Shown here piece after piece: positions 19,614 to 58,636 of a DNA stretch of 64,000 nt. The notes beneath the pieces were generated by a model that was not told the origin of the DNA, searched no databases, and saw only the letters and a program-made list of their open reading frames with translations. Source of the DNA: an uncultured Acidobacteriota bacterium (GTDB taxonomy: Bacteria > Acidobacteriota > Thermoanaerobaculia > Gp7-AA8); assembly GCA_937870635.1 (NCBI GenBank), contig CALMZP010000167.1:40917-104916 (forward strand), read 5' to 3'. How positions within the stretch are numbered: the first letter of the stretch is position 1; each line of letters starts with the position of its first letter. A program made the translations under genes and the position numbers.

Positions 19614-20103
19614 GAGTCGGACGCGCGCGACTCTAACACGCTAACGCCCGGCGCATGTTCTCAGGTGTGGTGCGGATGGGATAGAGGTACACGTGGTCGC
19701 GCCGATGATTCGTACGCAGGCCGATGAGGTCGCGTTCGTCGCCGATGACGTTCATCAGCACCGAGATCGTATGTGCGCGTCTCGTAGCGGTATGCCTGCG
19801 CTGCCATCCGTCCTGATCCGGGGCCGCCGCGAGACCGACGCGTGCGGTGGATGCCATCGAGGGACAAGGAAGGATCGCAGTCACGTGTGACGCCGGCGGC
19901 CTGACGGGGCGCGATTCAGGCCCTGGCATCGCCGAGGAGATCAGGGACGAACTCTTCACCGCGCTTTTTTGACGCGAAAAGACGGCCCCGGCCTGGATCT
20001 GACGATTGATCAGGAAATCCTTACGAATCATGGATTTGCGTATGCGTTGGAGAATCATCCCGGCGGCGGGGCGCAGTTTCGGATCACATGGTGACGTCCC
20101 GGG

Positions 20104-20117
20104 GTGACACCCGTCAC
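20104..20117. promoter_or_regulatory. GTGAC-N4-GTCAC palindrome upstream of the Crp/Fnr gene (candidate autoregulatory operator)
   Basis: ggGTGACacccGTCACa, centred about 83 bp upstream of the ATG at 20194. The same 5-4-5 palindrome occurs twice upstream of PFOR. Confidence 0.35.
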
Positions 20118-20193
20118 ACGGACCGGTGACGCGGCTCCATATCGCGTGGAGATGACCACCTCTAGATTATGTGACGACAGATCGGAGGCAGTT

Positions 20194-20913
20194 ATGCCGT
20201 CGCCCTATAACCTCGAAGTCGAATACAACTGCAGCGAGTGCCGCGTCCGTGCGGAGAGACTCTTCTGCAACATGACCGTGCCGACAGTTGGCGCACTCGA
20301 TACGGTGAAGTTCACCGGTCTCTACCCCAAGGGGTCCCTGCTGTTCGTCGAGGGCGAAGAACCGCGTGGCGTCTTCATTCTCTGCAGTGGCCGGGCGAAG
20401 CTCACGACGTCGTCGACCGAAGGGAAGACGCTGATCGTGAAGATCGCCGAACCCGGGGAAGTGCTCGGGGCCAGTGCGACGATCCTGAACAAGCCGTACG
20501 AGGTTTCCGCTGAAACGATCGAACCGTCGCAGCTCAACTTCATCAAGCGAGAAGACTTCATGAAGTTCCTCGGCGGTCACCCTGAAGCATGCATGCACAC
20601 CGCCCAGCAGCTCAGTGAGAAGTATCACTCCGCTCAGCGCGAGATCCGATCTCTCGGCCTCTCTCAGACGACTTCCGAGAAGCTGGCGCGGCTGCTGCTC
20701 GACTGGTCGGTCAAGAGCGGCGAGACGACCACCAAGGGCGTGCGCATCAAGGTCCTGCTCACGCACGAGGAGATCGCACAGATGATCGGGACGACGCGTG
20801 AGACGGTGACGCGACTGCTCAGCGACTTCAAGCGCCGCAAGATGATCGACGTGAAAGGCTCCAGTCTTTTCATCACCAACAAGTCCGGCCTGGAAAACAT
20901 GGTTTCCGTCTGA
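20194..20913 (+). CDS. Crp/Fnr-family transcriptional regulator with an FNR-like N-terminal Cys cluster
   Basis: cNMP-binding fold plus a C-terminal HTH (TRETVTRLLSDFKRRKMI). N-terminal Cys arrangement is CSEC-x9-C, with a further Cys near residue 130, as in O2-sensing FNR. ggagg RBS followed by an ATG at 20194. Confidence 0.85.
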   Translation: MPSPYNLEVEYNCSECRVRAERLFCNMTVPTVGALDTVKFTGLYPKGSLLFVEGEEPRGVFILCSGRAKLTTSSTEGKTLIVKIAEPGEVLGASATILNKPYEVSAETIEPSQLNFIKREDFMKFLGGHPEACMHTAQQLSEKYHSAQREIRSLGLSQTTSEKLARLLLDWSVKSGETTTKGVRIKVLLTHEEIAQMIGTTRETVTRLLSDFKRRKMIDVKGSSLFITNKSGLENMVSV

Positions 20914-21057
20914 GGACCATGTCACTTCCTCACGTTTGCGTGTGCGAACAGTCACCGAGGATGCGAGGTGTGCCCGCTAACGTCATTCAGTAACAAATCA
21001 TTTCTGGCGAGGTGCGATGTGACTGCGCAGACAGGTGCGGGTACGTTTCAGAATGCG

Positions 21058-21450
21058 ATGCCTTTTGTGGCAGATGTGCTTGGACCGCTCGAGAGGCCTT
21101 CGAAGATCGGCGCTGGCGATGTCCTCTTCCGCGAAGGCGAAGATCCCCGCGGTGTCTACTTTGTCCATGATGGCCGGTTCGACCTGGTGTTCTCGTCGCG
21201 CGGCGGGGATGCGAAACCCCTTCGCACCGCCGACACCGGACAGATCCTCGGCTTGAGCTGCATCGTGTCCAACCGTCCTCATGACTGCTCCGCGACGGCC
21301 AAGTCGGAAGCCACGGTCGGCTTCATTCCGAAAGACGAGTTTCAGAAGGTTCTGGACGCGAACCCGCAGCTCTGGATGACCGTCCTGCAGATGATCAGCA
21401 GCGATATCGGCGCCTGCTGGGACTGCATGCGCAGCCTGGGAAAATGTTGA
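21058..21450 (+). CDS. Stand-alone cyclic-nucleotide-binding-domain protein (no DNA-binding domain)
   Basis: GDVLFREGEDPRGVYFVHDGRF ... TADTGQILG, a cNMP-binding beta-roll. Start uncertain (GTG at 20968 or ATG at 21058). Confidence 0.55.
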   Translation: MPFVADVLGPLERPSKIGAGDVLFREGEDPRGVYFVHDGRFDLVFSSRGGDAKPLRTADTGQILGLSCIVSNRPHDCSATAKSEATVGFIPKDEFQKVLDANPQLWMTVLQMISSDIGACWDCMRSLGKC

Positions 21451-21734: not shown

Positions 21735-25286
<3,552 letters not shown>

Positions 25287-25385: not shown

Positions 25386-26387
25386 CTACGACGTTGCCGT
25401 GGTCAGCTTCTCCGCCGGCTGAGGCCGCAGCGCTTCCGTGAGCCCCTGCAGCCTTTTTCTCGCCTCGGTCTGCTCCTCCAGGGTGCCGCCGAGGAGGCGC
25501 TGGATCTCCAGGAGCTCGTGGATGACGTCAGGCGTGGCGTCGCCCATTGTGACGCTGCCTTTGGTCTGATCGGCAGCCACCGCGGCCTTGCGTGCCTCGA
25601 CCGCCCGCTGAAGCTCGGCGGCACGCGCTTCCATCTCGCCGGGAATGCCCAGGATCGCTTCATCGGTGATGGTCTTGAGTGCGCCGCGCTGGATGTCATC
25701 CGCTTTCGCGATCTCCCGAAGCTGAAGGAGCCGCTTGACGGCCGGATAGTACGGGCTCGACGGATCGTCTACGAGCTTCGCCTCGAGGAGTACCACTTCG
25801 GCCACGGCCTGCTTGTTTCCGCTCTCCACTCCGACTTCGGCGGTGGCGCGGACGCTCTTGCCGATCTCCGGCAGCGCGATGCCGTGCGTGTCACCAGGAT
25901 TGACCCAAACGTTCACTGGCAGCTCGTGCTTCGTGACCGTACCGCTGAATGCGGTCGATTCGAGGAAGATGTTCCGAACGAACACGCGGTTGTTCGCGGA
26001 GACGAAATTCCGCTTGCGCGGCGACACGACGAGAACGCGATAGGCGTTCGGTGCCGTGACAGTGATCAGCTGCAGCTCTTTCTCGGTCTGAACCTTCTGA
26101 ACGGCTTTCTCGTCCGATACGCGGCCGCCTTCCTCGCGCTGGAGCGCCGCCCAGCGATACGTGCCGTCATCGCGCTTCTCACGCATGCTCTCGATGTTCT
26201 CGTCGACGATCGCCAGGATGACCTGACGGTTGTCGCGGAGGTCTTTGGCGACGGCGGCGACGCGGGTCAGCGCGTGGAGATCGGCGCCGAGGGCGGTGAC
26301 TTTCTCGTCGCGGGGAAGGGGAGCTTCGGCGGCCAGAGGGATCGAGAGAACAGACAACAGCAGCGCTGCGGGAGCGAGCTTACGCAT
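25386..26387 (-). CDS. Secreted hypothetical protein (signal peptide, coiled-coil-rich C-terminus)
   Basis: MRKLAPAALLLSVLSIPLAAEA; ATG at 26387. Confidence 0.55.
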   Translation of the reverse strand: MRKLAPAALLLSVLSIPLAAEAPLPRDEKVTALGADLHALTRVAAVAKDLRDNRQVILAIVDENIESMREKRDDGTYRWAALQREEGGRVSDEKAVQKVQTEKELQLITVTAPNAYRVLVVSPRKRNFVSANNRVFVRNIFLESTAFSGTVTKHELPVNVWVNPGDTHGIALPEIGKSVRATAEVGVESGNKQAVAEVVLLEAKLVDDPSSPYYPAVKRLLQLREIAKADDIQRGALKTITDEAILGIPGEMEARAAELQRAVEARKAAVAADQTKGSVTMGDATPDVIHELLEIQRLLGGTLEEQTEARKRLQGLTEALRPQPAEKLTTATS

Positions 26388-26443
26388 GGTGATTCAACTC
26401 CTCTTTTTCAATACCGTGGACCGGGCGGGAGGATATCAGAGCG

Positions 26444-26533
26444 GGGGCCTGGACCCTGGACCCTGGGAGTGACGCGTTGCGAGTCTCACGTGGGAGCTGT
26501 CACTCGTCTCCCAGGGTCCAGGGTCCAGGGCCC
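26444..26533. repeat. Heptamer-based palindrome (GGACCCT)x2-3 ... (AGGGTCC)x3 with an imperfect central segment
   Basis: gggggcctggaccctggaccctgggagtgacg ... gtcactcgtctcccagggtccagggtccagggccc, immediately 3' of the nitroreductase stop. Confidence 0.7.
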
Positions 26534-26538
26534 AATGG

Positions 26539-27567
26539 CTACTTGACCACGGACTCCACGGGCCGCCGGGGCATCGGTTTGGGCACCGGACGGCCGTAGC
26601 CGATGCGCATCAGCAGCTGCGGGGGCTTGCTCGAGCGGAGCATGGACCACAGCTCCTTCCGCATCTCCTCGATCCCGATGGGTTGGTTGAGAAACGAGTA
26701 ATCGATCCCGTGAAGCGTCAGCAGCAGGAGAAGACATTCCAGGGTTTCGCCGGCGCGAAGGAGGGAGATGGCGTCGTCGTCGGCCGTCACCGCGATGAGG
26801 CCTGCCGCCTGCTCGGCGAGCTCGTGGTCGTGAGCGGCATGGCTGGACGCGACGTCGAACCGTCTGATCATCCATGGAGCGAGTGCCGAGAGCGGGCCGG
26901 GAATCCCGAACGCATCGGCAGACATCCCGTCGAGTGCCGAGCTTTCGTTCGGGCGGATCCAGTCCGCCAGCTCGTGGCGGAACGATTCCTGGCTCATGAG
27001 AACGCGATCGGCCGCAGCGACGAGGTCCGCCACGTGCCTGCGGTCATGAGGCACGACAAAAACCATCGTGGCGGCGTGTTCTTCCATGAAGTCGACGACC
27101 GCGGCGAGCGCGCTCTCGTCGATTGCTTTTTCCTGGAAGGGCTGCCGATTGGTATGACGGCGGGTGATGGCCGCGAAAAGCCGGCTGAGCGACGTGTCGG
27201 GCGCGCAAGTCTCACGAAGGGCAACCAGTGCGATCGGTACGCTCTCCTCGCGCGGCGTGCGATAGAGCACCGTCGTCCCGTAGCCGAAATGCGCAGCGGC
27301 GACGCGAAGATTCGCGACGGCGGCTCCGAGGCTCATCAGAAGCTCGCGGTCGTTGGGGTCGGCGATGGGCAGGCGGCGCTCGAAGTCGGCGAAGACCTCG
27401 ATGCCGTCGGGAGTGAGCCGGAACGACCAGGGCTGTGTGTTGTGACCGGACGGAGCGAGGACGGCGTAACGCAGGAGAAAACGCAGCTGTTCATCGCGGC
27501 TCTCGATTTCGTAGTAATCAGCCTCGTCGATCTGCCAGGGCGTCTTCCGCGGATTGAACTCTTCCAT
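26539..27567 (-). CDS. Acg-type (tandem-domain) nitroreductase family protein
   Basis: LAPSGHNTQPWSF nitroreductase signature. The 342-aa two-lobed architecture resembles the mycobacterial Acg family. Confidence 0.75.
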   Translation of the reverse strand: MEEFNPRKTPWQIDEADYYEIESRDEQLRFLLRYAVLAPSGHNTQPWSFRLTPDGIEVFADFERRLPIADPNDRELLMSLGAAVANLRVAAAHFGYGTTVLYRTPREESVPIALVALRETCAPDTSLSRLFAAITRRHTNRQPFQEKAIDESALAAVVDFMEEHAATMVFVVPHDRRHVADLVAAADRVLMSQESFRHELADWIRPNESSALDGMSADAFGIPGPLSALAPWMIRRFDVASSHAAHDHELAEQAAGLIAVTADDDAISLLRAGETLECLLLLLTLHGIDYSFLNQPIGIEEMRKELWSMLRSSKPPQLLMRIGYGRPVPKPMPRRPVESVVK

Positions 27568-27571
27568 CGTT

Positions 27572-28687
27572 TCACCTCACGGCGTGGTTGAGAATCGGCG
27601 CGGCGGCGGCGAACTGTCCCGGTTCGTAACTGCAGAGCGGGTCTGCGGCGAACAGGTCGCCGGTCGTCGCGTAGGCACGTGCGCGGGAGCCGCCACAGAT
27701 ACGCCTGAACTCGCACTGGCCGCATTTTCCCTTGAGCCGGCTGTCGTCACTGATCTGCAGGAACAGATCGGACGACCGGTAAATCGTCGAGAGAGGTTGA
27801 TACCGGACATTTCCCGCAGTGAGCGGGAGGAACGGGCTGATGCTCACTTCGCCGGAATGTGAGATGAAGACGATCTCGCTGCGATCCGTCGTGGCGCGTG
27901 AGATGGCCTGCTGCTCGAGCGAGGCGTCATCCGCATCAGCCGATTCGAAGTAACGGTCGATCGTGCGGCGGCGTTCGTCGAGTCCCTTCTGCAGGACGAA
28001 GCGGCGGTAGTGCGGCGCCTCGATCGTGCGGATCGCGACCCGCGACCTCGAGCCGATCCCGAAGAGGCGTTCGAACACCGCCTCGGCCTCCGCTGAGCTC
28101 AGTGAGTCGTTTCTGTTCATCTCGCGCGTCGGGACCGCGAAGTAGACGTTCCAGCGCTGAACGGAGAGGCCGGCCAGCAGCTGGGCGATCGTCTCGAGGT
28201 CGTTGACGTTGTGGCGCGTCACGAGCGTGTTGACGTCGAGCGCCATCTCGTACGTTCGCGCCCACCGGATCGCGAGGAGGCTCTGAGTGAAATGGCCGGG
28301 GACGCCGCGCGCCGCATCGTGACGATCAGGGGAGGAGGAGTCGATGCTGATCGCGAGGCGCGAAAGGCCGTGGCGGCGGAGCTTGCCGATGGCGTTGCCC
28401 GTGAGGAGCTGCGTGACGCTGAGGGCCAGCGTCGGCTGCAGGTTCCTCCGGACGGCGTAGTCGACGAGCTGATAGACGTCCGCCCGTTCGAGCGGATCGC
28501 CGCCGGTGATCAGCAGCTCTTCGGGATGCAATGCGGCGATCTGGTCGATCGTCTTGTACGCCTCGTACGTCGAGAGCTCGACAAGACTCCGCTTCTGCTG
28601 CGCTCCGACGGTGCAGTGCAGGCAGGCCAGTTTGCATGCACGCGTCAGCTCCCACATCACGATCCGCGCCTGGTTGTAATGACCCAT
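27572..28687 (-). CDS. Radical SAM / SPASM-domain enzyme
   Basis: CKLACLHC (CxxxCxxC) near the N-terminus, a GGDPL SAM-binding motif, and a C-terminal SPASM Cys cluster (CGQCEFRRICGG...PLC). ATG at 28687; the alternative GTG at 28756 would add 23 aa including a CC pair. Confidence 0.85.
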   Translation of the reverse strand: MGHYNQARIVMWELTRACKLACLHCTVGAQQKRSLVELSTYEAYKTIDQIAALHPEELLITGGDPLERADVYQLVDYAVRRNLQPTLALSVTQLLTGNAIGKLRRHGLSRLAISIDSSSPDRHDAARGVPGHFTQSLLAIRWARTYEMALDVNTLVTRHNVNDLETIAQLLAGLSVQRWNVYFAVPTREMNRNDSLSSAEAEAVFERLFGIGSRSRVAIRTIEAPHYRRFVLQKGLDERRRTIDRYFESADADDASLEQQAISRATTDRSEIVFISHSGEVSISPFLPLTAGNVRYQPLSTIYRSSDLFLQISDDSRLKGKCGQCEFRRICGGSRARAYATTGDLFAADPLCSYEPGQFAAAAPILNHAVR

Positions 28688-28774
28688 CGGTACCTCAGTC
28701 GTTGTGTTTGTTCGATGACAACACGACACCGAGTCGCCCCCGATGACCGCCCGCACACGGCCTTGTGACGATGG

Positions 28775-29518
28775 TTACGTCGTGAGAAACGGGCAGGAGC
28801 GCGGGATGCCCGATGGGTGAGGATGGTCATGGTGGCAGGCATCGGGCGCTTCCCCGAGAAGGCAGGGGCCGGGCACTCCATCGATCCACACCACGTCTCC
28901 AACCGTCTGCATCGTGCCCGCGGCGAGCAGTTCGACGATCCGGCGGAGCATCGGTCCCCACGCATCGCGGATCATCCACGCGCGATGGACATCGGCGTAG
29001 GCGGCCACGAGGGCAGCATCTCCGCGCCGCTGCGCGTCCGCGGCCGCGGGGGGAACGCGATACGGAGCACTCAGAAGGAACAGCGGCCCTTCCTCTACGT
29101 TTTCCGTGACGACGAATGCAGAGCAGCGGGTCTGGTCGAGACCGTCGAAGAGGGCCGTCCGGACGGGGTGCAGGCCCTTGTACCGGCGCTGTCCGTTTTC
29201 ATCGAGCAGGGTAAGGTCGCCGTCGTGCAGGGCGATGATCCTTCCGGGAAAGGCTTCGACCATCGGAACGGTGAGAATCCATGGGTAGCCCGCCAGCAGC
29301 ACGAAATCGGCGCCGGCGGTCTGGAGTGAATCGGCGAGCTCACGATCGAAGACGCGGCGATTGTTGAGATTGCGCGGCGGACACCGCGCGCCTCCGTCGA
29401 TCGTGGCCACGATGTCGTACACGACCTCGTATCGATGGTCGTTGGTGAGGGCGTCGACGCCGGGTGCTCCCTGCGATGTCAGGATCGCGACGCGGAGCGG
29501 CGATGAATCGAGACGCAT
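28775..29518 (-). CDS. Formyltransferase-fold (PurN/Fmt N-domain-like) protein, divergent active site
   Basis: RVAILTSQGAPGVDAL ... ADFVLLAGYPWIL ... ALHDGDLTLLDENGQRRYKGLHP ... CSAFVVTENVEEGPLF aligns to PurN (DLIVLAGYMRIL / NIHPSLLPKYPGLH / TSVHFVTDELDGGP). The catalytic N/H/D region has substitutions. Confidence 0.6.
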   Translation of the reverse strand: MRLDSSPLRVAILTSQGAPGVDALTNDHRYEVVYDIVATIDGGARCPPRNLNNRRVFDRELADSLQTAGADFVLLAGYPWILTVPMVEAFPGRIIALHDGDLTLLDENGQRRYKGLHPVRTALFDGLDQTRCSAFVVTENVEEGPLFLLSAPYRVPPAAADAQRRGDAALVAAYADVHRAWMIRDAWGPMLRRIVELLAAGTMQTVGDVVWIDGVPGPCLLGEAPDACHHDHPHPSGIPRSCPFLTT

Positions 29519-29522
29519 GGTT

Positions 29523-29825
29523 TCAGACCAGCACGGGCTCGTCTTCGGCGACTTCGATGAGGCCGTCCATCTCGGCCATGACATCGCGGGCGATGGGATC
29601 CTCACCCGCCTCCGTCAGAAGGACTTCATACAGCGCCAGCGTGTCAGCGACATCCTCGACGCCGATGATGCGCACGGCAAATCCGGCGTGGTCGATGATG
29701 TAGTCGCCCACCGCCGGCTGGCTGTCGAGGTGATCGAGGCGGACGGGCCGCCGGGTTCCCCAGAAGTCGACAGTGGCCGTCTTGCCTTCAATCTCGAGAA
29801 TCTGTCCGGGCACACCCAGGCACAT
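29523..29825 (-). CDS. HypC/HupF/HybG-family small protein
   Basis: N-terminal MCLGVP (essential Cys2 motif) and a central GDYIIDHAGFAV (HypC His51 region). 100 aa. ggaggt RBS followed by an ATG at 29825. Its stop lies 4 nt from the next start. Confidence 0.7.
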   Translation of the reverse strand: MCLGVPGQILEIEGKTATVDFWGTRRPVRLDHLDSQPAVGDYIIDHAGFAVRIIGVEDVADTLALYEVLLTEAGEDPIARDVMAEMDGLIEVAEDEPVLV

Positions 29826-29976
29826 GAGAAACCTCCGTGTCGTGAGAGTAGGTGGGGTGGGTCAACGGCCGGATGACCAGTCGTACGTCGCCATGTGTCG
29901 TCTGTCACATGAGCGAGCAGAACGTGGAGCACGGGCGACCCGCGCCCGCGCCCTTTTGACAACGAGAGACATGAAC

Positions 29977-30052
29977 GGCGCGGGCGAGGTCGCCCGCGCT
30001 CCACTGGATCGCGCGTCAGGCCCCATGGTGGCGGGATCGCCCGCGGCTCCAC
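29977..30052. repeat. Paired (partly degenerate) REP-like palindromes in the intergenic gap inside the radical-SAM / HypC locus
   Basis: ggcgcgggcgaggtcgcccgcgctccac ... ggcgggatcgcccgcggctccac. Confidence 0.7.
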
Positions 30053-30107
30053 ACCAAGGCGAGCCGGGGACGGAAGGTCGAAGGTCGAATCGCCCCGAAG
30101 CCAGCCT

Positions 30108-31334
30108 TCAGGCGGCCGGGATCTTCTTCCAGGCGATGTAAGGACGGGCCAGTTGGCGCAGCGTCCAGTTCTTGAGGTGGTACGCCTTCGTGGCAAAGGA
30201 CGGCTCGACGAGCCCCGCCGTTTCTTCGGGCTGTACGACGAGCGAGACCTCGATGGGGAGCACTCCGACCGGGAGACCTGCGCGGCGGCAGCTCTCATGA
30301 AGGTACGCGAAGACTTCGCGCATCGCGTCGGGATCGGGAGAAGGTACGTTCTCCATCTCGCTGCCGATCGTGGGCCGGAAGATGCAGACGGTCGGAAAGG
30401 CGCCGGCGTTGACGATGCGGTCGATGCCGCGCTTCGTGGCCTCGATGGGCTCGATGCCGGCGATGATCTCGCCCGAAACGCGGCCGCGCCCGAGCTTTTT
30501 CGCGGTGTACTCCATGGCTTCGAAGAACGCGCTCTGTCCGACGGTTTGGGCCTTTCCGGGACAGAGCCGCGCGAACGTCTCGGGATCCTCGAACTCATAG
30601 CAGAACGAGAAGTGATCCGTGCCGGCGTCGATCAGCGCGTCGTACTCGTTGAAGTTGCGGCGGGGAACGGGCACCGCCTGCACGCCGATGAAGCCGCCGA
30701 CGTATTTGCGCACCGCCCGAACGTACGGCTCGCACATTCGCAGCCCGTGCATCGATTCGCGGTCGTTCTGGTCCTCGTAGTGGTAGCCGGTGTTGAAGTG
30801 CGTGAAGATCGCGCCCGACTCGTCACGCGCCGCGCGCGCCACCTCGATCACGTCCTCGACGCGCTTGCGTGACTCTTCGGCGGTGCCGACGTTCTTTCCC
30901 GTCGTGCAAAACTTGCAGGCCAGGTTCAGTTTCGATGACCAGTACAGGCACCGCGCCGATACGTAGATGCCGAGGTAGTTGCCCTGCAGGACGCCGATAC
31001 GGCTCATGGGCGTGTCGGACGAGGTCATGCGCGAGTACCACGCCGGTTCGGCGGGGATGGTGACCTCGTAAAGGAGGCCTGTGCGCGTGTCGACGACTCC
31101 GTACCGGTCGTCGCCCTGCTGCAGAAGGAACGGCGAATCGGCCGCGAATTTTTCCACGACCGGGACGTTCGCCCAGATGTTCTTGGGACGCGAAGGAATG
31201 ACGATCTCCAGCCCTGAGCCGAGTCCGGCGCGTGTACGGGTGATCCGGCGGCCGATTTCTCCGGCGTGGCAGCTGGGGTCGATCCTCATTCCACGGCAGA
31301 ACAGCTCGATCTCGAGTTCAACCGGTTTGAACAT
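30108..31334 (-). CDS. Radical-SAM-like TIM-barrel protein with a noncanonical Cys motif (C-x10-C-x2-C) and an N-terminal extra domain of about 110 aa
   Basis: SARCLYWSSKLNLACKFCTTGKN, followed by barrel-like segments (NFNEYDALIDAGTDHF, GEIIAGIEPIEATKRGIDRIVNAG). ATG at 31334. Family assignment is uncertain. Confidence 0.45.
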   Translation of the reverse strand: MFKPVELEIELFCRGMRIDPSCHAGEIGRRITRTRAGLGSGLEIVIPSRPKNIWANVPVVEKFAADSPFLLQQGDDRYGVVDTRTGLLYEVTIPAEPAWYSRMTSSDTPMSRIGVLQGNYLGIYVSARCLYWSSKLNLACKFCTTGKNVGTAEESRKRVEDVIEVARAARDESGAIFTHFNTGYHYEDQNDRESMHGLRMCEPYVRAVRKYVGGFIGVQAVPVPRRNFNEYDALIDAGTDHFSFCYEFEDPETFARLCPGKAQTVGQSAFFEAMEYTAKKLGRGRVSGEIIAGIEPIEATKRGIDRIVNAGAFPTVCIFRPTIGSEMENVPSPDPDAMREVFAYLHESCRRAGLPVGVLPIEVSLVVQPEETAGLVEPSFATKAYHLKNWTLRQLARPYIAWKKIPAA

Positions 31335-31476
31335 GCGCTGAGTGAACCTCACCGCTGCACACGAGCAAGTGACGGAAGGAAGAGTGACGTGTGACGATCG
31401 TCACACGCCCGTGTGAGACCGTGTACCGCCGCGGGAGAGCTCCGAATCCATGATCCATTCACCGACGGAGGACATC

Positions 31477-31866
31477 ATGGGAAAAACGATCGAGACGTTG
31501 AACCGGAACGAGCTTATCTCCCGACTGCGTCGTGAGTTGATGCAGGGTACGGACGAAGAAAACTCGGTATGTAAGGTAGCCGCCGAGCGCGGCGTGTTCT
31601 GCAAAGGGTTCACGCGTTACACCGACGAAGAGTTCCGCAAACGCTACGACTGGATCGTGGCCAAGAACCCGGTCATGACCCGCGAGGACCTGGAGCGGAT
31701 CGCCAATGACTGGCAGCTCGGGCAGCAGGAAGTCCACGAGCTGCCCACGGCGTGCGACGTCCAGCAGAAGGTCTACGACACGTGCCGCGGATGGAACGAC
31801 TTCACCAATGAACAGCTCGCGAAGTTTTACTTCCAGCTCACGGGCGACGAGATAGCAATCCTATAG
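31477..31866 (+). CDS. Small hypothetical protein with four Cys residues
   Basis: Perfect GGAGG RBS 6 nt before the ATG at 31477. 129 aa. Divergent from the radical-SAM-like gene. Its stop lies 5 nt before the next start. Confidence 0.55.
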   Translation: MGKTIETLNRNELISRLRRELMQGTDEENSVCKVAAERGVFCKGFTRYTDEEFRKRYDWIVAKNPVMTREDLERIANDWQLGQQEVHELPTACDVQQKVYDTCRGWNDFTNEQLAKFYFQLTGDEIAIL

Positions 31867-31871
31867 ACTTC

Positions 31872-34553
31872 ATGACCATCACGATCTACCCAGCTCAATT
31901 CGAATCCGACGTAGTCCTCCGCAACGGTCGCACCCTCCGCATCAGGCCCGTCCGGCCCGATGACGGCGGAGCGCTCCTAGCGCTTTACCGTGGCCTCTCG
32001 ACGGACAGCCTCTACATGCGCTTCTTCGACACGCGCAGCGCGGACGCCGCCCTGCGCGATGCGCCGGCCGACGTCGACTACTCCGCGGATTTCGGCGTCG
32101 TGGGAGAGATGGTCGGCGGCATCGTCGGCATCGCTCACTACTTCCGTTCGGCACGGCATCAGAACTGCGCCGAAGTGGCGTTCGCAATCGCCGACAAGGC
32201 GCACGGCGGGGGCATCGGCACGCATCTGCTGCAGAAGCTCGCCGACATCGGACGCACGAAGGGCATCGAGGAGTTTCGCGCCGAGGTGCTGCCGGAAAAC
32301 ACGAAGATGCTCGATGTTTTCCTGTCATCCGGATTCGACGTCCGCAGCAGGTCGGCGGAGGGGACGGTGCACGTCTCGTTCGCGATCGCGCCGACGGAGG
32401 AGTATCAGGACCGTGCGGCGGAACGTTCGCGGAAAGCCGCGTATGCGTCCATGCGGTCGATCTTCTCGCCGCAGACGATCGCCGTCGTCGGCGCAAGCCG
32501 CCGGCGCGGGCAGCTCGGCACGGAGATCCTGCAGAACCTGAAGACCACCGGTTTCCGGGGCAGCCTATTCGCCGTCAACCCGAAAGCGACGGAGATCGAC
32601 GGCGTGCCATCCTATCCCACCGTCGATGCCATACCAGGCAACGTCGATCTGGCCATCATCGCCGTGCCGTCCGACGCCGTCGAATCGGTGATCGACGACT
32701 GTGTGACGAAGGGCGTTCCGGCAGCGGTCGTCATCACCGCCGGATTCGGAGAGACCGGCGAGGCCGGAAGGGCAGCCGAACGGCGTCTCCTCGACAAGGT
32801 GCGCGCCTCGGGGATGCGCATGGTCGGCCCGAACTGCATGGGCGTGATCAACAGCGATCCCGCGGTGAACATGCACGCGACGTTCTCATCGATCTTCCCG
32901 CCGCGCGGAAATGTGGCAATGTCAAGCCAGAGCGGGGCGCTGGGGCTCGCCATTCTCGACTACGCGCGCAATCTCAACATCGGGTTTTCGACGTTCATCT
33001 CCGTCGGAAACAAGGCCGACGTCTCCGGCAACGACCTCATCCAGTACTGGGCGGAAGACCCGAACACCGAGGTGATGCTCCTCTATCTCGAGAGCTTCGG
33101 CAATCCGCGCAAGTTCGGCGAGATCGCGCGCCGTGTCGGCCGGAAGAAGCCGATCGTCGCGGTGAAGGCCGGCCGCTCTGCAGCGGGCGCGCGCGCCGCG
33201 TCGTCGCATACCGGTGCGCTGGCCACGAGCGACGCCATCGTCACGAACCTGTTCAAGCAGGCGGGGGTCATCCGCACCGAAACGCTCGAGGAGCTCTTCG
33301 ACGTCGCCGCGCTGCTGGCGAATCAGCCGTTGCCGGCCGGGCGGCGCATCGCGATCGTGACGAACGCCGGAGGCCCGGGCATCCTCGCCGCCGACGCATG
33401 TGAATCGAGCGGCCTGCAGCTTGCCACGATTTGCGAGGAGACGACTGCGAAGCTCCGCGAGTTTCTGCCGGCAGCCGCGAGCGTCGGCAATCCGATCGAC
33501 ATGATCGCCAGCGCGACGGCCGATCAGTACCGCCGCAGCATCGAGCTCGTTCTCGCCGATCCGGGTGTCGACTCGGTCATCATCATCTACATCCCGGTTC
33601 TACCGACGGACGCCCAGGCGGTGGCGGAAGTGATCCGGGAGACCGCCGGAGTCGCCGGAGGCAAGACCCTCATCGCCACATTCATGAGCGCACAGGGCTC
33701 GCCGACCGCCCTCAAGCCCGTCCCCTCGTTCCCCTTTCCTGAACGCGCGGTGGCCGCGCTCGCGCGATCCACGGCGTACGCCGAATGGCGCCGCCGCCCC
33801 GCGGGCAAAGTCGTCAAGTATCCCGACTTCGACCGCGCCGCGATGCGCGCCATCGTCGAGAAGCGCCTCGCGTCCGGCGGCGGCTGGCTCGAGGCGACCG
33901 ACGTCAACGCGCTCTTCGGCGCCGCCAGCATCAAAGTGGCTTCGGTCGAATCGGTGTCCACGGTCTACGAAGCCGTGAATGCCGCCATGCGCATGGGCTT
34001 TCCCGTCGTTCTGAAGGCTCAGGGGTCGGAGCTTCTCCACAAATCCGATGTCGGGGCAGTCAAGCTCGGGATTCAGGACGAACGCGAAATGCGCGAGGCC
34101 TACCTCGAGATGGCCGGCCGCCTCGGAACCAAAATGCAGTCGGCGATCATCCAGCAGATGATCGCCGGCGGCGTCGAGATGATGGCCGGCGCGACGGACG
34201 ATCCCACCTTCGGTCACATCGTCGTTCTCGGCGCGGGCGGGACGCTCGTCGAACTGCTCGGCGACGTCGCCTTCCGCATCCATCCGATGACTGACGTCGA
34301 CGCGGACGACATGTTGCGCGAGATCCGCGTCTCGCGCCTGCTGCAGGGCTACCGCGGATCGAAGCCATGCGATGTCGCCGCCGTGCGCGAAGCGTTGCTG
34401 CGGCTCTCGGCGATGCTGGACGTCTGTCCCGAGATTCGGGAGCTGGACATCAATCCGATCAAGGCGCTGGAACAGGGCGCGATCGTCGTCGACGCCCGCG
34501 TGCGCATCGAACCGATCGCGGCAAGACCGCCGAGCCGTCGAATCTCATATTGA
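31872..34553 (+). CDS. Bifunctional GNAT acetyltransferase / ADP-forming acyl-CoA (acetate-CoA) ligase family protein
   Basis: N-terminal GNAT domain (IRPVRPDDGGALLALY), then a CoA-binding domain and the succinyl-CoA-synthetase-like alpha/beta and ATP-grasp domains. 893 aa. Confidence 0.85.
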   Translation: MTITIYPAQFESDVVLRNGRTLRIRPVRPDDGGALLALYRGLSTDSLYMRFFDTRSADAALRDAPADVDYSADFGVVGEMVGGIVGIAHYFRSARHQNCAEVAFAIADKAHGGGIGTHLLQKLADIGRTKGIEEFRAEVLPENTKMLDVFLSSGFDVRSRSAEGTVHVSFAIAPTEEYQDRAAERSRKAAYASMRSIFSPQTIAVVGASRRRGQLGTEILQNLKTTGFRGSLFAVNPKATEIDGVPSYPTVDAIPGNVDLAIIAVPSDAVESVIDDCVTKGVPAAVVITAGFGETGEAGRAAERRLLDKVRASGMRMVGPNCMGVINSDPAVNMHATFSSIFPPRGNVAMSSQSGALGLAILDYARNLNIGFSTFISVGNKADVSGNDLIQYWAEDPNTEVMLLYLESFGNPRKFGEIARRVGRKKPIVAVKAGRSAAGARAASSHTGALATSDAIVTNLFKQAGVIRTETLEELFDVAALLANQPLPAGRRIAIVTNAGGPGILAADACESSGLQLATICEETTAKLREFLPAAASVGNPIDMIASATADQYRRSIELVLADPGVDSVIIIYIPVLPTDAQAVAEVIRETAGVAGGKTLIATFMSAQGSPTALKPVPSFPFPERAVAALARSTAYAEWRRRPAGKVVKYPDFDRAAMRAIVEKRLASGGGWLEATDVNALFGAASIKVASVESVSTVYEAVNAAMRMGFPVVLKAQGSELLHKSDVGAVKLGIQDEREMREAYLEMAGRLGTKMQSAIIQQMIAGGVEMMAGATDDPTFGHIVVLGAGGTLVELLGDVAFRIHPMTDVDADDMLREIRVSRLLQGYRGSKPCDVAAVREALLRLSAMLDVCPEIRELDINPIKALEQGAIVVDARVRIEPIAARPPSRRISY

Positions 34554-53843: not shown

Positions 53844-56315
<2,472 letters not shown>

Positions 56316-56410
56316 TTTTCCTCCGAGCTGGGATGAGAGTTTTTTGTTCGAGTGCCGCATCCGGAGCAGGCCAGAGGCTGGGCTCACGCAAAAGGCCGGC
56401 GGATTCTAGC

Positions 56411-56526
56411 AGAGAGGGAGGGTCACGTCTGCACTTGGCACTTTCTCCACGAACGGTAGATCGGCGAAGTCGTGGGGAATCTACCGCTCGTGGAGAAAGT
56501 GCCAAGTGCAGACGTGACCCTCCTCC
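56411..56526. repeat. Long near-perfect hairpin (about 45-bp arms, 20-nt loop) in the divergent promoter region between the two PPase genes
   Basis: gagggagggtcacgtctgcacttggcactttctccacgaacggtagat / cggcgaagtcgtggggaatc / taccgctcgtggagaaagtgccaagtgcagacgtgaccctcctccc (one mismatch). Confidence 0.85.
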
Positions 56527-56566
56527 CAGTATCATGCGCGGCCAACCACCCCTGAGGAGACGACCG

Positions 56567-58636
56567 ATGTCGAACTCGATCTATCTGATTCCGCTGGCCG
56601 GGGTCCTCGCCCTGATCTTTGCCCTGGTCAGGAGTTCCTGGATCAGCAGGCAGGACGCCGGGACGCCCGAGATGAAAGTCATCGCCGGCCACATCCGCGA
56701 AGGGGCGATGGCATTCCTCACCCGCGAATATCGCGTCCTGGCGGTATTCGTCGTCGTGGTCTCGGTCCTCCTCGCCTGGGCGAACGCCGCGCGCGCCGAA
56801 AGCTCCTGGCTGATCGGCGTCTCCGTGGCCACCGGCGCGTTCTGCTCGGCCCTGGCCGGCTGGTTCGGAATGAGCGTGGCGACGCATGCAAACGTGCGCA
56901 CGGCGGCAGCCGCGCGGACCAGCATGAACGGCGCGCTGCGCCTCGCATTCGCCGGCGGCGCCGTGATGGGCTTTGCCGTCGTCGGCCTCGGACTACTCGG
57001 ACTGTCGCTTCTGTACATCCTCTACGAGCGCTTGTTCGCCTCCGCCGATCCGCAGGCGACGATGATCCGCAACATCAACGTGCTCTCCGGCTTCTCGTTC
57101 GGGGCGAGCTCCATCGCGCTCTTCGCGAGAGTCGGCGGCGGCATTTACACGAAGGCGGCCGACGTCGGCGCTGACCTCGTCGGCAAGCTCGAGGCGGGAA
57201 TCCCCGAAGACGATCCACGCAACCCGGCCGTCATCGCAGACAACGTCGGCGACAACGTCGGCGACGTCGCCGGCATGGGCGCCGATCTCTTCGAGTCCTA
57301 CGTCGGCTCCATCGTCGGCACCCTCGTCCTCGGCATGGTGGCGACGCAGGTTGGCGGTTCCAGCTATACACCGATGCTCGTGCTCTTTCCGCTCGTGCTC
57401 GCGGCGGTCGGCATCGTGCTCTCGCTCGTGGGTACGACTCTGGTCCGGATGAAAGAGGACGGTGATCCCGGCCGGGCGCTGCAGGCGGGCCCGATCGTCG
57501 CCGCCGTTCTGACTCTCATCGCCATCTGGTTCATCGCGCAGCGCATGCTGCCGGGGACCTACCTGCTCGAAGGGAGAGAGTTCAACGCCACGGGCGTCTT
57601 TTTCGCTACCGTCGCCGGACTCGTCGCCGGCGTCCTGATCGGACTGATCACCGAGTACTACACGTCCGAGGCGCGTGGTCCGGCGCGCGGGATCGCGCGG
57701 GACTCGCTGACGGGCGCGGCGACGAACATCATCAGCGGGCTGGCGGTAGGCATGAGGTCGACCGCGCTTCCGATCGTCGTCCTCGTCGTGGCGATCATCG
57801 TCTCGTATCGCCAGGCGGGCCTGTACGGGATCGCGATCGCCGCGCTGGGCATGTTGCTCACCACGGGAATCCAGCTCGCGGTCGATGCCTACGGCCCGAT
57901 CGCAGACAACGCCGGCGGCATCGCGGAGATGAGCCATCTCGGCAAGGAAGTGCGGGCACGGACGGACAAGCTCGACGCCGTCGGTAACACGACCGCCGCG
58001 ATCGGGAAAGGGTTCGCGATCGGGTCAGCGGCACTCACTGCGCTGGCGCTCTTCGCGGCCTTCAAGGCGACCGTCGGTCTGAAAGTGATCGACCTCAGCG
58101 ACCCCGATGTCATGGGAGGCCTCTTCCTTGGCGGCATGATGCCGTTCCTCTTCTCGGCGATGTCCATGAAGGCGGTGGGACGCGCGGCGTTCAAGATGAT
58201 CGAAGAGGTACGCCGCCAGTTCAAGGAAATACCCGGACTGATGGAGGGGACAGGGAAGGCCGACTACGCGCGTTGCGTCGACATCTCCACGCAGGCCGCG
58301 ATCAAGGAGATGGTCATCCCGGGATTGCTCGCCGTCGTCGCTCCGGTCGTGGTTGGCCTGTACAGCGTTCCTGCGCTCGGCGGTCTGCTGGCGGGCGTCA
58401 CTGTGACGGGCGTGCTGATGGCGATCTTCATGGCCAACGCCGGCGGCGCCTGGGACAACGCGAAGAAGCACATCGAGGCGGGAGCGCACGGCGGGAAGGG
58501 CTCCGATGCTCATCGTGCCGCGGTGGTCGGTGACACGGTCGGCGATCCGTTCAAGGACACATCCGGACCGAGCCTGAACATCCTCATCAAGCTGATGTCG
58601 GTGGTGGCGCTGATCGTGGCGCCGCTGCTGATTTAG
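56567..58636 (+). CDS. hppA: Membrane-bound pyrophosphatase, K+-dependent subfamily (Ala in [10 protein letters not shown])
   Basis: [24 protein letters not shown] and [21 protein letters not shown] motifs. GGAGA RBS followed by an ATG at 56567. Confidence 0.9.

What the first reader, a model, noticed from the sequence alone, without database searches (positions are those of the whole stretch)
26539..31866. Uncharacterised maturation-type operon: noncanonical rSAM-like, HypC-like, formyltransferase-like, rSAM/SPASM, Acg nitroreductase
Seen in sequence. Five co-directional, tightly spaced genes on the minus strand:
- a 408-aa TIM-barrel protein with an unusual C-x10-C-x2-C motif and an N-terminal extra domain;
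- after a 280-bp gap containing REP elements, a 100-aa protein with the HypC signature MCLGVP...GDYIIDHAGF;
- 4 nt later, a PurN/Fmt-fold protein with an altered catalytic region;
- a canonical radical SAM enzyme with a SPASM auxiliary-cluster domain;
- 5 nt later, a tandem-domain Acg-type nitroreductase.
A divergently transcribed 129-aa four-Cys protein with a perfect RBS sits upstream.

Established knowledge:
- HypC proteins are Fe(CN)2CO-cofactor chaperones for [NiFe] hydrogenase and normally sit with hypDEF and structural genes, none of which are in this window.
- A formyltransferase-fold domain makes the CO ligand in HypX.
- rSAM enzymes with auxiliary clusters (HydG) make CO/CN synthons.

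Inference: the combination of an orphan HypC-like protein, an Fmt-like protein and two rSAM enzymes suggests an undescribed metallocofactor-assembly or peptide/cofactor-maturation pathway, not a known RiPP cluster (PQQ, mycofactocin and similar).
Basis: partly seen in the sequence, partly recalled or inferred. Interest (0 to 1): 0.75.

Follow-up and report, generated by a model that had tools for sequence, protein, structure and literature searches.

The report
Orphan HypC–radical SAM anoxia gene cluster
In an uncultured Thermoanaerobaculia (Acidobacteriota) genome, a hydrogenase-type HypC chaperone sits far from any hydrogenase gene. It is locked to a decayed formyltransferase-like protein and a heme-synthase-like radical SAM enzyme, inside an oxygen-regulated fermentation island. 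This is an uncharacterised but conserved cofactor-handling module, not the single five-gene operon first proposed.

Summary

**Organisation.** Comparison with about 140 related loci shows two units, not one five-gene operon.
- **Unit 1** is a triad: HypC-like, then a PurN-derived protein with a Cys tail, then an AhbD-like radical SAM enzyme. An Acg nitroreductase often follows.
  - In a metagenome sample anchored on the PurN-like gene, HypC lies upstream in 41/42 loci and the radical SAM enzyme downstream in 39/40.
- **Unit 2** is the variant radical SAM enzyme (Cx10CxxC), which is far more widespread.
  - It occurs in at least 568 GTDB species genomes and usually lacks the triad (HypC in 12/59 testable species).
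  - In more distant relatives it sits next to Crp-family regulators and hemerythrin genes.

**Regulation.** Both units carry CRP-type TGTGA-N6-TCACA sites. They lie in an island with a Crp/Fnr regulator, pyruvate:ferredoxin oxidoreductase and an ADP-forming acetyl-CoA synthetase.

**The formyltransferase-like protein.** It lacks the catalytic triad, and 14 loci keep only its C-terminal half. A HypX-like role in making CO is therefore not supported.

**Function.** Unknown. My best guess (about 0.4) is a module induced by anoxia that matures an iron cofactor, probably an iron tetrapyrrole.

**Open point.** Whether this HypC is truly orphan genome-wide could not be tested.

Interest is moderate.

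The parts
20103..20118 (.). CRP-type palindrome (GGTGACACCCGTCACA, 1 mismatch) upstream of the Crp/Fnr regulator gene; probably an autoregulatory site
20104..20913 (+). Crp/Fnr-family regulator (likely start near 20194). It has an N-terminal C-x2-C-x8-C motif and an RETVTR recognition helix, the CRP type that reads TGTGA
20968..21450 (+). Stand-alone cNMP-binding-domain protein, syntenic with the regulator in related loci
21735..25286 (+). Pyruvate:ferredoxin oxidoreductase (1183 aa), convergent with the Acg end of the triad. It is a conserved border of the island
26443..26535 (.). Long near-perfect hairpin just downstream of the Acg stop; probably the end of the transcription unit or a repeat element
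26539..27567 (-). Acg-family FMN-binding oxidoreductase (342 aa). It starts 4 nt after the radical SAM stop. It is present after the radical SAM gene in 14/24 testable related loci
27572..28687 (-). AhbD/NirJ-clade radical SAM enzyme (371 aa) with CX3CX2C plus C-terminal CX2CX5CX20C. TIGR04053 scores 369 bits (cutoff 395) and AhbD scores 271 bits (cutoff 500)
28775..29518 (-). PurN-derived protein (247 aa) with degenerate catalytic residues, a 27-residue N-terminal deletion and an invariant C-terminal tail, WIDGVPGPC-x8-C-x13-CP
29523..29825 (-). HypC/HybG/HupF-family protein (100 aa) with Cys2 and the conserved His retained
29894..29909 (.). CRP-type palindrome (TGTGTCGTCTGTCACA, 1 mismatch) about 76 nt upstream of the HypC ATG
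29924..30045 (.). REP-like palindromic repeats (GCGGGCGA-NN-TCGCCCGC family) in the gap between the variant radical SAM gene and HypC
30108..31334 (-). Variant radical SAM enzyme (408 aa; Cx10CxxC; extra N-terminal beta-rich domain; GEIIAGIEP SAM motif). A separate unit, more widespread than the triad
31390..31405 (.). Perfect CRP-type palindrome TGTGACGATCGTCACA in the 142-nt divergent promoter region shared by the variant radical SAM gene and the 129-aa gene/ACD operon
31477..31866 (+). 129-aa protein with four invariant Cys (C-x9-C ... C-x9-C) and no family assignment. Its stop lies 5 nt before the next gene
31872..34553 (+). Fusion of a GNAT domain with an ADP-forming acetyl-CoA synthetase (893 aa), co-transcribed with the 129-aa gene

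Best explanation
**Organisation (shown).** The locus is two co-regulated transcription units inside an anoxia-response island of a Thermoanaerobaculia clade. The gene order is Crp/Fnr regulator, cNMP-binding protein, PFOR, [Acg], AhbD-like radical SAM, PurN-like protein, HypC-like protein, variant radical SAM, then the divergent 129-aa Cys protein and GNAT-ACD.

**Regulation (inferred).** A CRP-type regulator that may carry an Fe-S cluster switches the units on through TGTGA-N6-TCACA sites when oxygen is absent.

**Unit 1, the conserved triad (mechanism inferred).** I propose it matures or remodels an iron-bound cofactor.
- The HypC-like chaperone holds the iron-containing substrate through Cys2 and His.
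- The PurN-derived protein has lost formyl-transfer chemistry. It serves as HypC's translationally coupled scaffold partner through its invariant three-Cys tail, in a role analogous to HypD.
- The AhbD/NirJ-clade radical SAM enzyme performs oxidative radical chemistry on the bound cofactor. An iron tetrapyrrole is the most likely substrate class.
- Where present, the lidded FMN protein Acg takes the electron released through the auxiliary cluster.

**Unit 2.** The variant radical SAM gene, Cx10CxxC, belongs to the same regulon as the triad. It is an independent enzyme of unknown substrate.
For: **Synteny of the triad**
- In 51 metagenome loci anchored on the PurN-like gene, HypC is upstream in 41/42, the radical SAM enzyme is downstream in 39/40, and Acg follows in 14/24.
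- The genes inserted between HypC and the variant radical SAM gene vary (CBS, DUF6335, USP, a protease). The triad order still persists.

**Translational coupling**
- HypC to PurN-like gaps are 0-6 nt (window 4; L090 0; L001 2; L088 5; L092 6).
- Radical SAM to Acg spacing runs from a 4-nt overlap to a 13-nt gap.

**HypC ligands kept**
- MCLG-PG and DH-G are conserved in the window protein and its 120 best-scoring homologues and align to 2z1c.

**PurN-like protein**
- The three-Cys tail is invariant while the catalytic residues are not.
- Truncated forms keep the tail.

**Radical SAM enzyme**
- Its best full-length matches are TIGR04053, AhbD, NirJ2, NirJ1 and NirJ.
- It has the AhbD motif CX2CX5CX20C, which every AhbD in the sequence set compared in PMC10452713 carries.
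- For AhbD, an electron must be passed through the auxiliary cluster to an external acceptor (PMC10452713).

**Acg**
- Acg is an FMN protein induced by hypoxia that does not use NAD(P)H. Its native function is unknown (PMC11841060).

**Regulation**
- The window has three CRP-type sites.
- The site is present upstream of the variant radical SAM gene in 25/79 related loci, against about 1.7 expected. It is present upstream of HypC in 4/15, against about 0.3 expected.
- The regulator has an RETVTR recognition helix and N-terminal Cys residues.

**Independence of the variant radical SAM gene**.
Against: - No biochemical, expression or structural-complex data exist. The mechanism rests on family resemblance and gene order.
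- All triad loci come from one clade (variant radical SAM 66-84% identical), so part of the synteny may be inheritance rather than selection.
- In the sample anchored on the variant radical SAM gene, five loci have HypC followed directly by the radical SAM gene with no detectable PurN-like gene (L009, L023, L039, L041, L063).
- Acg is absent from about 40% of testable loci, so neither accessory protein is obligatory.
- The radical SAM enzyme scores below the AhbD and TIGR04053 cutoffs.
- Non-soil Acidobacteriota classes are reported to be rich in [NiFe] hydrogenases (PMC11245096). An ordinary hydrogenase role for this HypC therefore cannot be excluded.
Confidence: 0.4

Rival explanations
1. 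The HypC-like protein is an ordinary [NiFe]-hydrogenase maturation chaperone, an isoenzyme-specific paralogue like HybG. It happens to be encoded away from hypDEF and is switched on with PFOR so that reduced ferredoxin can be disposed of as H2. Its neighbours are unrelated members of the same regulon.
For: - It passes the HypC family models and keeps Cys2 and His.
- Its C-terminal helix resembles that of E. coli HypC (my recollection of that sequence).
- PFOR is adjacent.
- Non-soil Acidobacteriota classes are reported to carry many [NiFe] group 1, 3 and 4 hydrogenases (PMC11245096).
Against: - No hyp or hydrogenase gene lies in the 64-kb window or within 10 kb in the four annotated related loci L001, L088, L090 and L092.
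- Coupling to the PurN-like and radical SAM genes at 0-6 nt in about 40 loci is hard to explain for unrelated genes.
- This HypC subfamily was seen only in this island.
Confidence: 0.2
2. There is no common pathway. The genes are independent anoxia and stress-response genes, resembling a DosR-type dormancy set (Acg, USP, CBS, PFOR, ACD). They stay adjacent through shared regulation and recent common ancestry.
For: - Related loci carry USP, CBS, GAF-HisKA_3 kinase and REC-GerE regulator genes next to the island.
- The island's composition is mosaic.
- All examples come from one clade.
- Acg is DosR-regulated in mycobacteria.
Against: - The order and near-zero spacing of HypC, PurN-like and radical SAM genes are kept in 39-41 of 40-42 loci, despite rearrangements around them and erosion of the PurN-like N-terminal half.
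Confidence: 0.25
3. A RiPP-like or protein-derived-cofactor pathway. The HypC-like protein, whose acidic tail often ends in x-L-V, would be the precursor or the peptide-binding partner of the radical SAM maturase. Acg would act as a SagB/MftD-like dehydrogenase.
For: - The tail commonly ends in EEVLV or EPVLV.
- The pairing of a radical SAM auxiliary-cluster enzyme with a flavoprotein recalls mycofactocin and PQQ logic.
Against: - The tail is variable and is missing in several homologues.
- The radical SAM enzyme is closest to the enzymes that act on tetrapyrroles (AhbD and NirJ). PqqE (109 bits, cutoff 381) and MftC (105 bits, cutoff 265) score far lower.
- It lacks the AuxI cysteines.
- No credible small ORF lies in the gaps.
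Confidence: 0.08

Closest known systems
HypC-HypD scaffold of [NiFe]-hydrogenase maturation (HypC/HybG/HupF family)
   Same: - The protein is a true HypC-family member with Cys2 and the conserved His.
- It is translationally coupled to a Rossmann-type protein with conserved Cys residues, as hypC is to hypD.
   Different: - No hypD, hypE, hypF or hydrogenase genes lie nearby.
- The partner derives from PurN, not HypD.
- A radical SAM enzyme and an Acg flavoprotein follow.
AhbD (radical SAM heme synthase) and NirJ (heme d1) clade; TIGR04053 family
   Same: - Full-length HMM similarity.
- CX3CX2C plus the C-terminal CX2CX5CX20C auxiliary-cluster motif.
- The AuxI cysteines are absent, as in AhbD from non-methanogenic archaea.
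   Different: - Scores fall below every family cutoff (TIGR04053 369 vs 395; AhbD 271 vs 500).
- No ahbABC or nir genes are nearby.
- It is paired with a HypC-like protein.
HypX (aerobic CO-ligand synthase: formyltransferase domain plus crotonase-like domain)
   Same: It has a formyltransferase-fold domain encoded next to a HypC-family gene.
   Different: - The catalytic Asn, His and Asp are not conserved.
- The N-terminal half is dispensable.
- There is no crotonase-like domain.
- Sequence matches in the PDB were PurN and PurU only.
NF045502 'variant_rSAM', with the MSMEG_0568 (Nit1C cluster) radical SAM family as sister group
   Same: - The 408-aa enzyme passes NF045502.
   Different: - It is not an MSMEG_0568 member (109 bits vs cutoff 303.7).
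- It has no Nit1C neighbours.
- Its function is unknown.
Mycobacterial DosR dormancy regulon (Acg/Rv2032, Rv3131, USPs, the CBS protein Hrp1)
   Same: - It has an Acg-family protein.
- In related loci, USP, CBS and DosS/DosR-like two-component genes cluster with it.
- Control appears to be anoxia-linked.
   Different: - The regulator here is a Crp/Fnr protein with CRP-type sites.
- The organism is an acidobacterium.
- Acg is coupled to a radical SAM gene.

Membership tests
HypC/HybG/HupF | Matches the family profile above its curated cutoff | tested here: met
   PF01455 73.3 bits (cutoff 28.5); TIGR00074 63.8 bits (cutoff 48)
HypC/HybG/HupF | N-terminal Met-Cys2 and the conserved His (His51 in E. 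coli) | tested here: met
   MCLGVPG and DHAGF align to 2z1c. Both motifs are conserved in the window protein and its 120 best-scoring homologues
HypC/HybG/HupF | Encoded with hypD/E/F or hydrogenase structural genes | tested here: not met
   None among the main ORFs of the 64-kb window, nor within 10 kb in L001, L088, L090 or L092. The rest of the genome could not be examined
HypC/HybG/HupF | Binds the Fe(CN)2CO moiety together with HypD and delivers it to the hydrogenase large subunit | not testable with these tools
   Needs biochemistry or FTIR
Radical SAM superfamily (408-aa enzyme) | Three-Cys motif for the [4Fe-4S] cluster (canonically CX3CX2C) | tested here: inconclusive
   The canonical spacing is absent. 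A variant, C135-x10-C146-x2-C149, is at least 90% conserved in 62 diverse homologues
Radical SAM superfamily (408-aa enzyme) | Partial or full TIM-barrel radical SAM fold | tested here: met
Radical SAM superfamily (408-aa enzyme) | Family profile match | tested here: met
   NF045502 186.6 bits (cutoff 125). Pfam PF04055 does not hit the window protein but is recorded for the distant homologues P0131 and P0175
MSMEG_0568 (Nit1C) radical SAM family | TIGR04043 score above cutoff | tested here: not met
   109 bits vs cutoff 303.7
PurN/Fmt formyltransferases | Catalytic Asn106/His108/Asp144 (E. coli PurN numbering) and an intact N-terminal domain | tested here: not met
   - The window protein has Ala, His and Glu at these positions.
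- The His is Gln in L006 and missing in L016, and the Asp position varies.
- 14 loci keep only residues 119-247.
- TIGR00639 scores 46.8 bits vs cutoff 150
HypX | Formyltransferase domain fused to a crotonase-like (enoyl-CoA hydratase) domain | tested here: not met
   - No second domain: the C-terminus is the end of the PurN fold plus a 30-residue Cys tail.
- Sequence matches in the PDB are PurN and PurU only
AhbD heme b synthase | TIGR04545 above cutoff; CX3CX2C and CX2CX5CX20-38C motifs | tested here: inconclusive
   Both motifs are present, but the score is 271 bits vs cutoff 500
TIGR04053 radical SAM/SPASM family | Score above cutoff | tested here: not met
   369.1 bits vs cutoff 395; a near miss, aligned over the full length
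SPASM-domain radical SAM enzymes | Seven to eight C-terminal Cys that bind two auxiliary clusters | tested here: not met
   Only four C-terminal Cys. PF13186 scores 19.2 bits vs cutoff 21.5. This is the Twitch-like, AhbD type
Acg family FMN oxidoreductases | NF047509 above cutoff; tandem nitroreductase fold like MsAcg | tested here: met
   302.6 bits (cutoff 199). PDB 2ymv matches at 5.3e-18 over residues 32-340
PQQ / mycofactocin RiPP-cofactor clusters | PqqE or MftC equivalog plus a precursor peptide gene | tested here: not met
   PqqE 109 bits vs 381; MftC 105 bits vs 265. No credible small ORF in the gaps

The most novel reading that the evidence does not exclude
A HypC-family chaperone has been recruited, without HypD, HypE or HypF, into a pathway that does not serve a hydrogenase. 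With a scaffold protein derived from PurN (Cys tail) and an AhbD-like radical SAM enzyme, it would build or remodel an iron cofactor used only under anoxia. That cofactor could be an iron tetrapyrrole or an organometallic iron centre. Acg-family flavoproteins would act as the electron acceptor. This would give the first biochemical role to the Acg family of the mycobacterial dormancy regulon.
Probability: 0.25. Interest if true: 0.8.

Novelty: new variant of a known kind. Interest (0 to 1): 0.5.

Why it matters
HypC proteins are known only as Fe(CN)2CO carriers for [NiFe] hydrogenases. A conserved HypC paralogue working with an AhbD-like radical SAM enzyme would widen the known uses of this chaperone fold and could point to an unknown anaerobic cofactor.

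The link between this radical SAM enzyme and Acg offers a testable idea for Acg-family proteins: that they accept electrons from auxiliary-cluster radical SAM enzymes. Their native function in Mycobacterium tuberculosis dormancy is still unknown.

The analysis also defines a CRP-type anoxia regulon and a widespread Cx10CxxC radical SAM family in Thermoanaerobaculia, an abundant class with few cultured representatives. That family is mislabelled in JGI annotations as a dicarboxylate transporter.

Tried and rejected
- **Single five-gene operon:** rejected on synteny and on the separate CRP-type site in the 282-nt gap.
- **HypX-like CO synthesis by the Fmt-like protein:** rejected.
- **Riboswitch or other known RNA in the gaps:** only sub-threshold hairpin hits.
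- **Sigma-70 promoter scan:** nothing found.
- **Precursor-peptide ORF in the gaps:** nothing credible.
- **Sequence search of solved structures with the variant radical SAM enzyme:** no hit at E up to 1.
- **Structure of the 129-aa Cys protein:** The single-sequence model had pLDDT 49.7 and was unusable.
- **afdb50 fold library:** unavailable.
- **Genome-contig scan with the 19-sequence alignment:** no usable conserved stretch; redone with 8 sequences.
- **Literature searches:** HypC + radical SAM + formyltransferase, TIGR04053, HypC + AhbD and MSMEG_0568 found no description of such a cluster.
- **Nit1C papers:** they concern only the sister radical SAM family.
- **Homologue searches for HypC and the radical SAM enzyme:** the listed top hits carried only Thermoanaerobaculia or unnamed metagenome labels, so no cross-phylum context was obtained.

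Full report
**1. What is in the sequence**

The window has about 63% G+C. The best protein matches are named Thermoanaerobaculia or Acidobacteriota MAGs.

The minus strand between 26539 and 31352 carries five genes:

| Gene | Coordinates | Size | Key evidence |
|---|---|---|---|
| Variant radical SAM | 30108-31352 (likely ATG 31334) | 408 aa | No Pfam hit; passes NF045502 'variant_rSAM' (186.6 bits vs 125). Fails the MSMEG_0568/Nit1C sister family (109 vs 303.7) |
| HypC-like | 29523-29825 | 100 aa | PF01455 73 bits; TIGR00074 63.8 vs 48 |
| PurN-like | 28775-29518 | 247 aa | Starts 4 nt after the HypC stop. Formyl_trans_N matched only over profile positions 56-150 of 181 |
| AhbD-like radical SAM | 27572-28687 | 371 aa | Lies 87 nt further on. 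TIGR04053 369 vs 395; AhbD 271; NirJ2 174 |
| Acg-family FMN oxidoreductase | 26539-27567 | 342 aa | Starts 4 nt further on. NF047509 302.6 vs 199; PDB 2ymv 5e-18 |

- The 282-nt gap between the variant radical SAM gene and HypC holds REP-like palindromes (GCGGGCGA-NN-TCGCCCGC). The window has 11 copies against 0.27 expected.
- The divergent gene, 31477-31866, encodes 129 aa. It has a GGAGG ribosome-binding site and four invariant Cys.
- It is followed after 5 nt by a GNAT/ADP-forming acetyl-CoA synthetase fusion.
- No hyp or hydrogenase gene was found among the main ORFs of the window.

**2. The individual proteins**

*HypC-like.*
- Cys2 and the His of DHAGF align with the HypC structure from Thermococcus (2z1c, E 7.6e-12).
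- Both motifs are conserved in the window protein and its 120 best-scoring homologues.
- The conserved helix after the OB-fold resembles the C-terminal helix of E. coli HypC (my recollection of that sequence).
- The acidic tail varies and often ends in x-L-V.

*PurN-like.*
- Against E. coli PurN, Asn106 is Ala, His108 is kept and Asp144 is Glu. The SLLP loop is replaced by an insertion.
- Across nine orthologues the His is not invariant (Gln in L006, absent in L016), and the Asp position varies.
- A tail, WIDGVPGPC-x8-C-x13-CP, is invariant.
- The stretch before the tail is the normal end of the PurN fold (the comparison with PurN is from memory).
- The window copy has also lost about 27 residues of the N-terminal subdomain.

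*AhbD-like enzyme.*
- It has CX3CX2C plus exactly CX2CX5CX20C and no other Cys.
- According to PMC10452713, all 39 AhbD sequences compared there share these two motifs. The extra AuxI cysteines are present only in a subset.

*Variant radical SAM.*
- C135-x10-C146-x2-C149 and GEIIAG-EP are conserved down to 25% identity.
- It is a real radical SAM enzyme with an extra N-terminal beta-rich domain. No specific functional assignment follows from this.

**3. Conservation of the neighbourhood**

*Sample anchored on the variant radical SAM gene.*
- At least 568 GTDB species genomes encode a relative. The 80 best are all Thermoanaerobaculia or Acidobacteriota at 68-84% identity.
- Results for loci with at least 5 kb downstream:

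| Variant radical SAM identity | Loci | HypC | AhbD-like | Acg | PurN-like |
|---|---|---|---|---|---|
| At least 74% | 20 | 9 | 13 | 9 | 7 |
| Below 74% | 39 | 3 | 1 | 1 | 0 |

- In the below-74% group a Crp-family gene lies within 3.5 kb in 27/47 loci. Other recurrent neighbours are a hemerythrin-like gene, a small HTH gene and a membrane protein.
- More distant homologues tell the same story:
  - one lies divergent from hemerythrin plus Crp (45% identity);
  - one lies near rubrerythrin, AhpC and hemerythrin (53%);
  - one lies in a UbiA / radical SAM / beta-eliminating-lyase operon (40%);
  - one lies beside ThiF (30%).
- None has HypC nearby.

*Sample anchored on the PurN-like gene (51 metagenome loci).*

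| Feature | Count |
|---|---|
| HypC immediately upstream | 41/42 |
| AhbD-like enzyme downstream | 39/40 |
| Acg after it | 14/24 |
| ~75-aa Cys/His-rich protein on the opposite strand between them | 19/39 |
| Variant radical SAM gene within about 8 kb upstream | 21/22 |

- Fourteen loci keep only the C-terminal half (residues 119-247) of the PurN-like protein.
- Gaps between HypC and the PurN-like gene are 0-6 nt in five annotated loci.

*Conclusions.*
- The conserved unit is the triad HypC, PurN-tail protein and AhbD-like enzyme.
- In this sample the triad was found almost only inside one island, bounded by PFOR with Crp/cNMP genes on one side. The variant radical SAM gene, the 129-aa gene and the ACD gene bound it on the other.
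- The variant radical SAM gene is an older, broader and independent element.

**4. Regulation**

- A perfect TGTGACGATCGTCACA lies in the 142-nt divergent promoter region between the variant radical SAM gene and the 129-aa gene.
- One-mismatch copies lie about 76 nt upstream of HypC and just upstream of the Crp/Fnr gene.
- Across related loci, sites with at most 1 mismatch occur upstream of the variant radical SAM gene in 25/79 loci, against about 1.7 expected, mostly near -50. They occur upstream of HypC in 4/15 loci, against about 0.3 expected.
- The local regulator has the CRP-type RETVTR recognition helix and an N-terminal C-x2-C-x8-C motif. An FNR-like oxygen-sensing cluster is an inference from that motif.
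- PFOR plus an ADP-forming acetyl-CoA synthetase is a classical anaerobic route from pyruvate to acetate with ATP (established knowledge).
- Related loci add USP, CBS, and GAF-HisKA_3/REC-GerE genes, which recalls the content of the mycobacterial DosR regulon.

**5. Interpretation**

*Shown:*
- two units;
- a conserved triad;
- a CRP-type regulon;
- loss of the formyltransferase catalytic apparatus;
- AhbD-type cluster motifs.

*Inferred:*
- the triad handles an iron-bound cofactor;
- the HypC-like protein carries it;
- the PurN-tail protein acts as a Cys-donating partner, analogous to HypD;
- the AhbD/NirJ-clade enzyme does the radical chemistry;
- Acg is the electron sink.

Acg is an FMN protein that does not use NAD(P)H and has no known native function (PMC11841060). 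For AhbD, an electron must leave through the auxiliary cluster to an external acceptor (PMC10452713).

I put about 0.4 on this reading. The main rivals are:
- an ordinary hydrogenase HypC encoded away from its operon (0.2). Non-soil Acidobacteriota classes are reported to be rich in [NiFe] hydrogenases (PMC11245096);
- co-regulated but functionally unrelated stress genes (0.25);
- a RiPP-like pathway (0.08).

**6. Comparison with known systems, and novelty**

- No literature describing this combination was found.
- It is not a hyp operon, not HypX, not the Ahb or Nir pathways, not PQQ or mycofactocin, and not Nit1C (see the membership tests).
- The individual families are known. NF045502, TIGR04053 and Acg are all of unknown function.
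- The combination appears undescribed and restricted to one clade, so I class it as a new variant of a known kind: a radical-SAM-assisted cofactor maturation cluster.
- Interest is moderate (0.5). The HypC recruitment and the Acg link would be notable if proven, but the present evidence is purely comparative. The key test, whether the genome has hyp and hydrogenase genes elsewhere, could not be run.

Noticed in passing
window 14217, 14274, 25305, 25351, 29980, 45624, 53808, 60612, 60640, 62505, 62548: A REP-like family of palindromes, GCGGGCGA-NN-TCGCCCGC, often in pairs. The window has 11 copies against 0.27 expected by chance.
   Followed up: partly
L001:13563-13799(-), L004:13984-14214(-), L088:9655-9870(-) and 19 of 39 metagenome loci; absent from the window: A conserved ~75-aa Cys/His-rich protein (HYPSEDYPC-C ... 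C-x2-C-H ... C-C). It lies on the opposite strand between the PurN-like and AhbD-like genes in related loci and has no family assignment. It may be another metal-binding component of the module.
   Followed up: partly
window 31477-31866 (+): The 129-aa four-Cys protein is co-transcribed with the GNAT/ADP-forming acetyl-CoA synthetase (5-nt gap). It is adjacent to the variant radical SAM gene in 19/23 close loci but only 6/48 distant ones. It has no Pfam or NCBIfam family, and its single-sequence structure model was unusable.
   Followed up: partly
window 20104-20913 (+) and 20968-21450 (+): A Crp/Fnr regulator with an N-terminal C-x2-C-x8-C motif and a CRP-type recognition helix, followed by a stand-alone cNMP-binding protein. 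A CRP-type site sits at its own 5' end.
   Followed up: partly
proteins P0007, P0010, P0013 and others: Many JGI records annotate orthologues of the variant radical SAM enzyme as 'sodium-dependent dicarboxylate transporter 2/3/5'. This looks like a propagated misannotation.
   Followed up: no
L094:3811-7369: A 40%-identical homologue of the variant radical SAM enzyme overlaps a UbiA prenyltransferase gene upstream and a beta-eliminating lyase gene downstream. SCO1 and a cytochrome b/Fe-S fusion lie nearby. This hints that at least one branch of the family acts in quinone or heme-type cofactor chemistry.
   Followed up: no
L001:3997-6033, L090:646-2810, L092:2228-4318; L092:8991-9872; L001:11725-12168: Related islands carry a GAF-HisKA_3 kinase with a REC-GerE regulator (DosS/DosR-like), tandem USP, CBS and DUF6335 genes. 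Together with Acg this resembles the gene content of the mycobacterial dormancy regulon.
   Followed up: partly
window 53844-56387 (-) and 56333-58636 (+): Two large ORFs, oriented divergently, both match the membrane H+-pyrophosphatase family strongly (615 and 927 bits). They look like adjacent paralogues.
   Followed up: no
window 25386-26387 (-): A 333-aa ORF with a signal-peptide-like N-terminus lies between Acg and PFOR. It has no family and no counterpart in any related locus, so it may be a lineage-specific insertion.
   Followed up: no
window 28775-29518 (-): The window's PurN-like protein lacks about 27 residues that its orthologues have in the N-terminal subdomain. This fits progressive erosion of that half of the protein.
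   Followed up: yes
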